Below are positions 16,412 through 25,086 of a stretch of 64,000 nucleotides of DNA, in pieces (positions within the stretch are counted from its first letter, which is position 1; every line of letters starts with the position of its first letter). This DNA comes from Octopus vulgaris (taxonomy: Eukaryota), in NCBI GenBank assembly GCA_951406725.2, contig OX597834.1, positions 32,922,001 through 32,986,000 of the forward strand, read 5' to 3'. A program made the position numbers and the translations under genes. The notes under the pieces are model-generated. The model made no database searches and was not told the DNA's origin. It saw only the letters and a program-made list of their open reading frames with translations.

Positions 16412-16832
<421 letters not shown>

Positions 16833-16834
16833 GT

Positions 16835-17052
16835 GGGCATATGGCGTAGTGGTTCGATTCCAGGCAGTGACCTGAATAATAATAATAATAATAATAACAA
16901 TAACATGGAAAAATACCCTAGGAATGAGAACCCAGGTTTGAAATTTCCCCAAAACACCTGATGAAGGCTTGGAAGGCATATCAGCCGAAACGTTGTGTTA
17001 GCAACAAACAAGATGAGGACAAATATCCGTCAAATGTAAATAATGTTAAATG
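16835..17052 (+). mobile_element. Inverted second copy of the tRNA-HHR element (internal deletion in the tRNA part, 3' truncated)
   Basis: Reverse complement of the left arm; the deletion joins GTGGTT to CGATTCC through a GTT microhomology. Confidence 0.8.
16953..16999 (+). ncRNA. Minimal type I hammerhead ribozyme, canonical core
   Basis: AACAC-CUGAUGA-a-GGCU...AGCC-GAAA-CG-UU-GUGUU, with palindromic AACGUU stem III. Predicted cut is after 16994. Confidence 0.8.
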
Positions 17053-17059
17053 ACATACA

Positions 17060-17128
<69 letters not shown>

Positions 17129-18099: not shown

Positions 18100-18950
18100 T
18101 TGAACGTTGATATCTCCGGTGCAGCGTCGCTTCGTATCAATTACCTGTGTCATTTATGATATCTCTATATTAAATGCAAGATTTTATAGATGCCGTTCGT
18201 CACGCCTCTATATAATCTCAAAGGCTCAATATAATAAGATTTTGCCATAATTTGGAATGGCAGGTATTCTATGTTCAGGTATTAAGAATATCATCCATGT
18301 ATTGCTACATGAATATCGTGTGTTATCATAAAGATCTTTTAATTCTATAAAAGTGTTTTTAATGCCGTTAATGATGTCGTGTATAACTTTTGTGTTTCTT
18401 ACTGTCATATATCACAAGGATTATTTTTGTAAATAAAGTGTTTATTATTGAATGCTTTCTGTGCAGTTCCTTGGCGTTGGAAAAAGAGACTTGACAGCGG
18501 AAATTGTACGTATTCCTATTGCAGTGGTTGCTGTCATTGCTAGTTATTATTCTCGTGTATTTCTGTGCATTATTTGTAAAGAGATGTTGTTTGTGTAAAT
18601 AAGTCGTAGAATTTATGTGACTCTTGTCTTTCGAGGAGATTTAAAGCTTATTTCATGCAGATTCGTAGCGACAGACATTCTCTGTAGAAACATTAAAGGT
18701 ATTAAAAGCACCTTAATGGAACTAAAAAGCTGTACGATCGCGCTCGATATTCTTGTAGCAGTACTGCAAATGACATTCTTAGAAACCGAACATAGAATAC
18801 CTGCCATTCAAAATTATAGACTCTTTCAGAAAGGAGAGGATCTTGCAACATACTTAAAAACTTGCATTTAAGGCAAAAATATTACAAACGACATTTTGTA
18901 ATTTATTAGAAACGGCGCTGCACAAGAAATACAGACTGAAACTCAACACG
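18100..18950. pseudogene. Two diverged, inverted copies of a LINE APE endonuclease N-terminus
   Basis: + strand: ILCRNIKGIKSTLMELK..DILVAVLQMTFLETEHRIPAIQNY..LATYLK. - strand: IINGIKNTFIELK..EHRIPAIPNY. Both resemble the WNxNG..LQET pattern. Confidence 0.7.
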
Positions 18951-22392: not shown

Positions 22393-22719
22393 GATATATA
22401 TATATATAGATATAAATATATATAGATATATATATTTATAAATGTATATATATATATGTATGTATATATGTATATATATATGTGTGTGTGTATGTGTGTG
22501 TATGTGTGTATGTATGTATGCATGTATGTATGTGAGTACGTATGTATATATGTGTATGTTTGTAGGTATGTATCTATGTATATATGTATGTATGTATGTT
22601 TGTATGTCTCTTCTCTTTTTTAGTTATTATAAATTTTCCACAGAGGAGGGAGCCGGTTTCCAAGAAAGATACACGGCTCCGTCTTTGGGATGTAGTTAAC
22701 ACAGACAAATTCACATTTG

Positions 22720-23055
22720 TTACGGAGATGTACTTGCATAGCAAGGGATTTGATCTGAGATCGAGTGCTGAAACGAAAACAATTGCAGCGTGGAAGGTGT
22801 TTGTAAGCCATTCAAGAAACACACAAAAGCTGTTCGATTCACTTCAACATTTAAGTTTAATTTGTCAAAATATTTTCGTCGCTTTAAGACCGCGACCTGT
22901 TCACTGACAAAAATCCGTGATGCAGCACGGATTTTTGTCAGTGAACAGGTCGCGGTCTTAAAGCGACGAAAATATTTTGACAAATTAAACTTAAATGTTG
23001 AAGTGAATCGAACGGCTTTTGTGTGTTTCTTGAATGGCTTACAAACACCTTCCAC
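22720..23055. mobile_element. 336-bp fold-back element with a 266-bp palindrome and 12-bp TSD
   Basis: 22790-23055 is palindromic with 2 mismatched pairs out of 133. AATTCACATTTG is repeated at 22708-22719 and 23056-23067. Confidence 0.92.
22935..22983 (+). ncRNA. Minimal hammerhead fold, G3-C8 core variant (mirror copy at 22862-22910 on the - strand)
   Basis: UUGUCA-GUGAACA-g-GUCGC-loop-GCGAC-GAAA-AUAU-UU-UGACAA: 6-bp stem I, 5-bp stem II and palindromic AAUAUU stem III. Confidence 0.7.
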
Positions 23056-23324
23056 AATTCACATTTGGAACTTGAGAAAAGTCTTGCATATTTTTACTGT
23101 TCCACTCACAGATTGCACTTGTAATGTACGAATCAGCCAGTATACATACATGTGTATGTTTGTACGTATGTATATAGGTATGTATGTATGTATGTGTGCG
23201 TGTATGTATGTATGTATGTATGTATGTATGAATGTATATATGTGTGTATGTATGTATGTATGTGCGTGTATTAGTATGTGTGTGCATGCATGTGAATGTA
23301 TATAATTTATCAATTGCTTTTATC

Positions 23325-23722
23325 TTTTACTTGTTTCAGTCGTTAGACTGCGGCCATGCTGGGGCACCACCTTCAAGAACTTTTACTCAAACGTATCAAA
23401 CCCAGTACTTATATTTTTTAAAGCCTGGTATTCATTCTGTCGGTCGCTTTAGCCGAAATACTAAGGTATAGGGACATAAACACACCAACACCGGTTGTCA
23501 AGTGGTGGTGGTGGTAGTGGGGACAAACACAGACCCAAAGACACATACACATACATATATACATACATATATATATACGACGGGCTTCCTGTTTCCATTT
23601 ACTAAATCCACTCACAGGGCTTTGGTCGGATCGAGGCTATAGTAGAAGGCAGTTGTCCAAAGTGCCAAGCGGTGGGACTGAACCTGGAACCATGTGGTTG
23701 GGAAACAAATTTGTTACCACAA
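23325..23722 (-). mobile_element. SINE family A
   Basis: Both halves match 790-1246. Confidence 0.85.
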
Positions 23723-24647: not shown

Positions 24648-24699
24648 CTATCTATCTATCTACCTCACTACATGTATATATTCTTTTATGCTTTTATTC

Positions 24700-24889
24700 T
24701 TTTATGTGTTTCAGTCGTTTGACTGCGGCCATGCTGGAGCACCGCCTTTAGTCGAACAAATCGAAACCAGTACTTATTCCTTGTAAGCCTAGCACATATT
24801 CTATCGGTCCTATTTTGCCGAACCGCTAACTTATGGGGACGTAAACACACCACCATCGGTCGTCAAGCGATAGCGGGGAACAAACACAG

Positions 24890-24937
<48 letters not shown>

Positions 24938-25086
24938 GACGGGCTTCTTTCAGTTTCCGTCTTCCAATTCCACTCACAAGGCTTTGGTAAGCCCGAGGCT
25001 ATTGTAGAAGACACTTGCCCAAAGTGCCACGCTGTGGGACTGAACCCGGAACTATGTGGTTGGTGAGCAAGCTAGTTACCGCACAG
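24700..25086 (-). mobile_element. SINE family A
   Basis: Both halves match 790-1246. Confidence 0.88.

What the first reader, a model, noticed from the sequence alone, without database searches (positions are those of the whole stretch)
22708..23067. Near-perfect 266-bp palindrome inserted as one event with a 12-bp TSD and carrying mirrored G3-C8 hammerheads
Seen: the 336-bp insert is a 203-bp unit plus a 133-bp inverted partial copy with no spacer. It is flanked by AATTCACATTTG repeats and interrupts a LINE at its stop codon. Inference: the inversion arose during integration, as with PLE inverted pseudo-LTRs. Transcription of either strand would give a 133-bp hairpin that competes with the ribozyme fold and could be an ADAR or Dicer substrate.
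Basis: partly seen in the sequence, partly recalled or inferred. Interest (0 to 1): 0.7.

Follow-up and report, generated by a model that had tools for sequence, protein, structure and literature searches.

The report
Octopus Penelope stub, swapped-core hammerhead
The palindrome is a real, stump-sized insertion of the end piece of a Penelope-like jumping gene, which is a known pattern; its small self-cutting RNA motif has two paired core letters swapped, and there is an indirect hint that it still cuts.

Summary
The 133+133-bp palindrome, the 12-bp target-site duplication and the mirrored G3-C8 minimal hammerheads are real.

The unit is the pseudo-LTR of a Penelope-like element (PLE). It ends in 30 codons that match the N-terminus of an octopus protein at 29/30 residues. 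Overlapping homologs link that protein to RT plus GIY-YIG-like proteins.

Public contigs show a very abundant family with a fixed 3' end, many solo units, and head-to-head junctions at 14 different positions, so the inversion is built during insertion. The flank is a separate repeat whose other copies carry the 12-mer once. Nothing supports calling it a LINE.

This architecture is published. Three points are less ordinary:
- G3-C8 appears to be the family's own core.
- The predicted cut lies 56 nt upstream of the ATG.
- In one presumed RNA run, depth relative to DNA steps down about threefold at the predicted cut.

Cleavage, editing and long-read support for this locus were not shown.

The parts
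22708..22719 (.). left copy of the 12-bp target-site duplication
   Evidence: present once in other copies of the host repeat (table 7)
22720..22919 (-). long arm: PLE pseudo-LTR read outward from the centre; 22720 is the family's fixed 3' end
   Evidence: loose ends with unlike flanks before 22720 in 100, 113 and 17 contigs
22720..22789 (-). 70-nt one-sided extension, in the position of the PLE 'tail' but longer than the published 30-40 nt
   Evidence: PMC8557442 passages
22722..22811 (-). first 30 codons of the PLE open reading frame (ATG at 22811-22809)
   Evidence: 29/30 identical to the N-terminus of P0002; 5 of 8 listed non-CpG family variants are synonymous in this frame, against 1 and 2 of 8 in the other frames
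22861..22911 (-). minimal type I hammerhead with G3-C8 core (left copy); predicted cut between 22868 and 22867, 56 nt upstream of the ATG
22915..22930 (.). head-to-head junction: 5-bp stem closing a 6-nt loop; left arm probably ends and right arm begins at the shared G22919
   Evidence: fold; family letters at 22918-22924 and joints landing at 22919-22923
22919..23055 (+). short arm: second pseudo-LTR copy, ending 22 nt into the ORF
22934..22984 (+). minimal type I hammerhead (right copy): stem I 22934-40/22978-84, G3 22941, C8 22946, A9 22947, extra G 22948, stem II 22949-53/22963-67, GAA 22968-70, palindromic AATATT 22971-76, U17 22977
23056..23067 (.). right copy of the target-site duplication
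22612..22719 (.). left part of the host repeat (unclassified, high copy, lying between microsatellites)
   Evidence: summed contig depth up to about 400000 in DNA runs; 4 near-fixed differences from other copies
23068..23140 (.). right part of the host repeat (outer end approximate)
   Evidence: loose-end consensus behind 22719 matches the start of this stretch

Best explanation
A single retrotransposition event by an endonuclease-bearing Penelope-like element left two copies of its pseudo-LTR head to head inside an older repeat.

Shown: the unit holds a hammerhead, a 56-nt leader and the first 30 codons of the element's ORF. It has a fixed 3' end and a clustered 5' limit about 10-20 nt upstream of hammerhead stem I. 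It inserts as solo units or as head-to-head pairs with variable junctions.

Inferred (about 0.55): the endonuclease nicks the two target strands 12 nt apart. Each nick primes reverse transcription inside the ORF start (92 and 22 nt into it here) on uncut RNA. Both cDNAs run to or near the RNA's 5' end and are joined end to end, here over a 1-nt overlap. The near-perfect palindrome is the special case where both cDNAs were almost complete.

Inferred (about 0.5): the G3-C8 hammerhead is a working, probably dimer- or protein-dependent ribozyme in solo and tandem transcripts. It would release an RNA with an intact start codon. In read-through transcripts of this copy the hairpin silences it.
For: Protein chain: the 30-aa frame hits residues 1-26 of P0001 at E 2e-5, the only hit among 1.84 billion proteins (O. 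bimaculoides). It matches P0002 (O. sinensis) at 29/30. P0002 matches P0094 (O. vulgaris) at 79% over 150 aa, and P0094 matches the 1045-aa P0004 at 41%, E 2e-122. Of 29 long homologs I scanned 16: all have DKS and YVDD, 13 have a CX2-5CxxC linker, and 11 have a YIG-like motif downstream of the RT.

Family data: 16463, 13422 and 1270 contigs were laid in three runs. 10 of 15 shown joints (of 98) and 7 of 12 shown filler joints (of 59) go from 14 different positions (22740-22858) to 22919-22923. 6 of those 10 joints occur in both DNA runs.

Both arms agree at 10 of 10 tested polymorphic sites, including C22813 (2% in the family). A snap-back of the short arm cannot make a longer arm, and the top strand switches from antisense to sense letters at 22919/22920.

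Published matches: head-to-head pLTRs with 8-10-bp TSDs and junction palindromes (PMC3846280); both target strands cut and extended, internal RT start sites, uncut RNA used (PMC11167929).
Against: No single full-length octopus element was seen: the link to RT and endonuclease is a chain of overlaps, with 31-44% identity at the last step. Pfam recognises RT or GIY-YIG only weakly, in 3 of 10 long homologs and below cut-off.

No listed contig spans this locus. The only raw-read run gave 0 laid reads, so it was no test. Most joint and loose-end rows were hidden (83, 47 and 712). The reference held only 28 nt of the right arm, which biases which joints can be seen.

The extension is 70 nt, not 30-40 nt. 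TSD lengths of other copies were not measurable. A22920 could still be a simple substitution in a symmetric centre.
Confidence: 0.88

Rival explanations
1. A PLE-derived non-autonomous element whose palindromic form is itself the unit copied from a master locus, so the inversion at this site was inherited, not made here.
For: The 5' limits cluster tightly at 22919-22924, so the centre looks fixed. Both arms share rare letters. Depth continues across the centre.
Against: There are 14 different junction positions, several with filler letters, and many solo units. A read-through RNA is a -246 kcal/mol hairpin, which should be a poor template (inference).
Confidence: 0.07
2. A DNA foldback element or MITE moved by a transposase.
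For: It is short, palindromic, high-copy and flanked by a TSD.
Against: The two termini are not inverted copies of each other (70 nt is unmatched). The unit carries a hammerhead and the start of an RT-linked ORF. Solo non-palindromic copies are common.
Confidence: 0.02
3. The right arm is an assembly or library fold-back artefact, or a later replication fold-back of a solo unit.
For: No independent piece spans the locus; no long reads were seen.
Against: An exact TSD closes both arms and the host repeat resumes in register. The arms differ at a CpG site where the family has C (22831). The same kind of junction recurs in two independent DNA runs.
Confidence: 0.03
4. On the ribozyme only: the motif is inactive, and the RNA depth step reflects a transcription start near 22870, hairpin-related loss during library making, or subfamily mix.
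For: One run, only guessed to be RNA and held as contigs, which cannot show ends. Minimal PLE hammerheads cut poorly in vitro (PMC4209133). No reads ended at the cut in Anolis RNA-seq, and engineered C3G/G8C only partly rescues activity (PMC11167929). The stem III duplex is only -0.2 kcal/mol. U17 is outside the usual H17 consensus only if read strictly; PMC3088659 allows A, C or U there.
Against: The step falls in the 12-nt bin that holds the predicted cut, and the level beyond it is close to that of the host repeat. None of the 40 shown variant rows (of 70) hits the GUGAACA or GAA core letters. The stem I variant at 22865 keeps pairing as G-U.
Confidence: 0.5

Closest known systems
Insertions of endonuclease-bearing PLEs with an inverted pLTR and a one-sided tail (Adineta Pen2a/Pen3a, PMC3846280; PMC8557442 Fig. 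2 legend)
   Same: Head-to-head pLTRs, a short palindrome at the junction, TSD of about 8-12 bp, pLTR holding the first codons of the ORF, one arm shorter, partial tandems.
   Different: This is a stub with no ORF body. The one-sided extension is 70 nt rather than 30-40 nt. Both arms reach the 5' limit, giving a near-perfect hairpin.
Minimal type I hammerheads of metazoan PLEs (PMC4209133)
   Same: Extra nucleotide between 9 and 10.1, G10.1-C11.1, palindromic 15-16 segment, short stems; dual motifs on opposite strands 100-700 bp apart were described in Schistosoma.
   Different: The core pair is G3-C8. The text I read reports C3-G8 and natural U3-A8 only. The two cores here are only 37 nt apart.
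Poseidon of Anolis, PAc (PMC11167929)
   Same: RT start sites inside the ORF start define the insertion ends; both strands are cut and extended; an ATT motif is present at the TSD start here; uncut RNA is the template.
   Different: In PAc the hammerhead cuts 26 nt downstream of the start codon; here the predicted cut is 56 nt upstream. The protein lineage differs (DKS motif, CX2-5CxxC linker).
Neptune/Nematis-type PLE proteins (PMC8557442, supplement Figs S1, S2, S7 rows)
   Same: C-terminal GIY-YIG-like domain preceded by a CX2-5CxxC linker, short and Nematis-like by eye.
   Different: RT3(A) to RT4(B) spacing is 127-136 aa in 14 of 16 scanned homologs, against about 60 aa for canonical C-terminal-EN PLEs counted by eye in Fig. 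S1. Clade not assigned.
Animal non-LTR retrozymes (PMC7229834; 10.64898/2026.07.22.740005)
   Same: Short, non-coding, type I hammerhead, PLE-related.
   Different: Retrozymes are head-to-tail tandem arrays; this is head-to-head with a minimal motif.

Membership tests
EN+ Penelope-like element | Cognate ORF with PLE-type RT and C-terminal GIY-YIG endonuclease | tested here: met
   Indirect, through overlapping homologs; no single full-length octopus protein seen; Pfam support weak
EN+ Penelope-like element | pLTR contains the first codons of the ORF | tested here: met
   29/30 match to the P0002 N-terminus; synonymous bias P 0.014-0.029
EN+ Penelope-like element | Hammerhead motif in the pLTR | tested here: met
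   Rfam gathering search found nothing in the window
EN+ Penelope-like element | Inverted 5'-truncated copy joined head to head; partial tandems | tested here: met
   14 junction positions; 'goes back' joints such as 22884 to 22779
EN+ Penelope-like element | Optional 30-40-nt tail on one side | tested here: inconclusive
   The extension is 70 nt; a second end at 22782 appears in 15 contigs of one run; 712 loose-end rows were hidden
EN+ Penelope-like element | TSD of variable length across copies | not testable with these tools
   No genome held; only this copy's 12 bp was measured
Minimal PLE hammerhead | Extra nt after A9, G10.1-C11.1, GAAA, palindromic stem III, stem I | tested here: met
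   features from PMC4209133
Minimal PLE hammerhead | Canonical C3-G8 core pair | tested here: not met
   G3-C8; the Watson-Crick pair is kept
Minimal PLE hammerhead | Self-cleavage | not testable with these tools
   Only the indirect depth step
MITE / DNA foldback | Terminal inverted repeats at both ends of a non-coding unit | tested here: not met
   22720-22789 has no partner; solo units; ORF start present
Non-LTR retrozyme | Head-to-tail tandem hammerhead-bearing units | tested here: not met
   Head-to-head at this locus; no other copy in the window
LINE (for the host repeat) | 3' end of an RT-bearing ORF | tested here: inconclusive
   No Pfam hit, no longer homolog; the query was short, so this is weak negative evidence

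The most novel reading that the evidence does not exclude
An octopus PLE family of some tens of thousands of copies has fixed a G3-C8 hammerhead core, so far met in the papers I read only as an engineered rescue mutant. It cleaves in vivo 56 nt upstream of its start codon. It belongs to an unassigned C-terminal-endonuclease lineage with a roughly 70-aa insertion in the RT fingers. Its two-ended priming mass-produces near-perfect hairpins that could supply a measurable share of octopus ADAR substrates.
Probability: 0.2. Interest if true: 0.7.

Novelty: new variant of a known kind. Interest (0 to 1): 0.42.

Why it matters
The insertion pattern is known, so the palindrome alone is ordinary. The family offers three tests.
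1. A natural G3-C8 hammerhead in thousands of copies, with an RNA signal at the predicted cut. In vivo cleavage by PLE hammerheads is unsettled; none was seen in Anolis RNA-seq (PMC11167929).
2. A large set of junctions and arm ends that can decide how PLE head-to-head inversions form.
3. A candidate source for the unusually high double-stranded RNA potential and hyper-editing reported for octopus (PMC5625713, where octopus was left out of the repeat-family analysis).

Tried and rejected
- Rfam gathering search of the window: 0 matches.
- No genome was held, so there is no genome-wide copy table.
- Hammerhead pattern in metagenome contigs: 0 matches. A looser pattern in viral contigs gave 1 match, L001; not examined and treated as chance.
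- No other copy of the unit, and no further part of its ORF, in the window.
- Raw-read run X22 laid 0 reads: no test.
- A-to-G editing: places by kind of change were A>G 3 and T>C 5 in the presumed RNA run, against 2 and 4 in each DNA run. Contigs drop rare variants, so this is no test.
- LINE identity of the host: no support.
- Protein atlas: one uninformative hit at 0.75. PDB profile search: one weak RT hit, E 2e-4. ARAGORN: 0 genes.
- The 111-codon open frame across the palindrome is not a gene: no Pfam hit, and a 47% variant puts a stop in that frame.
- Snap-back of the short arm: rejected, because it cannot give a longer partner.
- Literature searches for a natural G3-C8 hammerhead and for this octopus family listed none by title or in the passages read. 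PMC5785218 on PLE hammerhead variants is not held and may report it. Supplements of PMC4209133 were not read.

Full report
**Observation.** The window holds an inverted repeat with arms 22790-22922 and 22923-23055, 133 nt each, with no gap and two mismatches. An exact 12-mer flanks the 336-nt insert. A descriptor scan finds a minimal type I hammerhead in each arm, both reading outward from the centre. Each has the core GUGAACA, one extra G, a 5-bp stem II opened by G-C, GAA, a palindromic AAUAUU in place of stem III, U17 and a 7-bp stem I. In 20000 shuffles of the unit, none gave a hit of this quality and 3 gave a loose hit. These are the four traits that PMC4209133 lists for PLE minimal hammerheads (parts 1-2 of 4 read), except that the 3-8 pair is G-C. 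Rfam misses the motif. In the solo unit the stems form with probability 0.66-1.0; in a read-through transcript of either strand they fall to 0.0.

**One event.** I laid four public runs on 22612-22950. One gave no reads, two are presumed DNA contig sets under two organism labels, and one is presumed RNA. The flank is itself a repeat. In 80, 72 and 7 contigs it continues past 22719 straight into the sequence that follows the right TSD, so paralogous empty sites carry the 12-mer once. The two arms agree at 10 of 10 polymorphic sites tested, one of them carried by about 2% of the family by depth. The arms therefore come from one source. The only clear later change is a CpG transition at 22831. 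No listed piece spans the locus, so this particular insertion is not independently confirmed.

**The family.** 16463, 13422 and 1270 contigs were laid. Summed depth reaches 2-4 million, against about 30-55 for most of the longest single contigs listed. That suggests roughly tens of thousands of copies, although the tool warns that this is not a copy number. The 3' end is fixed at 22720 with unlike flanks (100, 113 and 17 contigs). The 5' ends cluster at 22912-22924, also with unlike flanks, so solo units are common. Of 15 joints shown (98 in all), 10 run from a variable point in the antisense arm to 22919-22923, the start of the sense arm, and 6 of these occur in both DNA runs. Of 12 filler joints shown (59 in all), 7 do the same with 1-17 extra letters. 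Together these give 14 junction positions between 22740 and 22858. The short reference limits which joints can be seen. Family letters around 22918-22927 show that A22920 is the natural sense letter. The window's junction then reads as left arm to G22919 and right arm from G22919, an asymmetric join that only looks symmetric. A plain substitution is not excluded.

**What the unit is.** On the sense strand an ATG at 22811 opens 30 codons that run to the fixed end. Five of 8 listed non-CpG variants are synonymous in this frame (P 0.014-0.029), against 1 and 2 of 8 in the other frames. The peptide's only hit among 1.84 billion proteins is the N-terminus of an Octopus bimaculoides protein. An O. 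sinensis protein starts with 29 of the 30 residues and runs on. O. vulgaris proteins overlap it at 79% and reach a DKS motif and RT motif A. Twenty-nine longer homologs were found. Of the 16 scanned, all have YVDD, 13 have a CX2-5CxxC linker and 11 have a downstream YIG-like motif. Pfam sees RT or GIY-YIG only weakly, in 3 of 10. The unit is thus the pseudo-LTR of an endonuclease-bearing PLE, and the host is most likely an octopus, inferred from those names.

**How it likely works.** Both outer ends are 3' ends, 92 and 22 nt into the ORF. PMC11167929 (passages and section 3 part 2) shows a PLE protein cutting and extending both target strands, starting internally in the ORF start, on uncut RNA. 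I infer two priming events at nicks 12 nt apart, two cDNAs running to the RNA's 5' end, and end joining. Incomplete cDNAs would give the variable junctions and fillers; two near-complete ones would give this palindrome. Internal priming in the first pLTR of a transcript would also explain the mass of stubs of about 205 nt. PMC3846280 (passages) instead proposes self-priming on an antisense template for head-to-head junctions. My data do not exclude that for the family. Snap-back of the short arm alone cannot explain this copy.

**The ribozyme.** None of the 40 shown variant rows (70 in all) touches the GUGAACA or GAA letters, so G3-C8 appears to be the family core. The predicted cut is 56 nt upstream of the ATG, which would leave the ORF intact; in Anolis the cut is inside the ORF. 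RNA-to-DNA depth (per thousand) is 9.6-21.8 in the 12 bins 3' of the cut, 7.2 in the bin holding it, 3.1-4.5 in the 6 bins 5' of it, and 1.9-3.6 in 6 host-repeat bins. This fits cleavage. It rests on one contig set only guessed to be RNA, and a promoter at that point or hairpin-related loss would look alike. In the passages I read, natural covariation at 3-8 is U3-A8 (PMC3088659, PMC4209133), and G3-C8 appears as an engineered variant with partial activity (PMC11167929, PMC3884650). PMC5785218 could not be read and may already report it.

The LINE host is unsupported. ADAR and Dicer use is untested. It is plausible, since octopus has very high hairpin potential and hyper-editing, and lizard Penelope is heavily edited (PMC5625713 passages). 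Whether this locus is transcribed is unknown.

**Context.** A second, unrelated family in the window (about 16450-17060) shows the same head-to-head layout with C3-G8 hammerheads and a longer left arm. Penelope-like elements are annotated and recently active in O. vulgaris (PMC13282606 passages). Other papers seen: PMC8557442 passages and supplement rows; PMC6765202 and PMC7229834 passages; 10.64898/2026.07.22.740005 part 1 of 5. Hammerhead numbering follows my own knowledge of the convention.

**Verdict.** The feature is real and belongs to a known class, PLE pseudo-LTR stubs with an inverted partner. It is a modest variant through its G3-C8 core, the cut position upstream of the ORF, and a cognate protein lineage with an unusually long RT3-RT4 segment. 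Interest 0.42.

Noticed in passing
window 16450-17061: Second head-to-head insertion from another family: C3-G8 minimal hammerheads at 16551 (-) and 16958 (+). At the centre (about 16830) is a head that looks tRNA-derived by eye (A/B-box-like; ARAGORN finds nothing). There is an (AAT)n tract, a 35-nt deletion in the right arm and a longer left arm. It may be a Pol III-headed parasite of PLEs.
   Followed up: partly
P0004-P0030 (homologs of the ORF begun at window 22811): RT3(A)-RT4(B) spacing of 127-136 aa in 14 of 16 scanned proteins that have a C-terminal endonuclease-like domain. PMC8557442 describes such an insertion as absent from canonical C-terminal-EN PLEs. Not yet seen in the octopus protein itself.
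   Followed up: partly
window 5633-6352: 239-aa open frame with a GIY-YIG domain (Pfam PF01541, E 4e-6) and a Cys linker: a relic of a different PLE family.
   Followed up: partly
window 40748-41095: 115-aa open frame that looks by eye like another GIY-YIG-type PLE end; no Pfam hit.
   Followed up: partly
window 23318-23720, 24692-25080, 47467-47846, 48656-49098 and others: Abundant SINE-like repeat of about 400 bp with a central microsatellite; more than ten copies at 67-79% identity.
   Followed up: no
P0002: The O. sinensis gene model fuses the PLE N-terminal 220 aa to a methyltransferase domain; probably an annotation chimera, though exonisation is not excluded.
   Followed up: no
window 22932-22941 (+), mirrored at 22904-22913 (-): Stem I 5' strand ends in a pyrimidine run plus CAG, resembling a splice acceptor. 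PMC4209133 notes an intron ending at helix I in Drosophila Penelope.
   Followed up: no
window 18247-18373 and 18691-18817: Degenerate inverted pair, 79% over 129 nt, about 320 nt apart.
   Followed up: no
window 1301-1342 and 1964-2023: Weak matches (72-76%) to the host repeat on either side of a long microsatellite; possibly an older relative.
   Followed up: no
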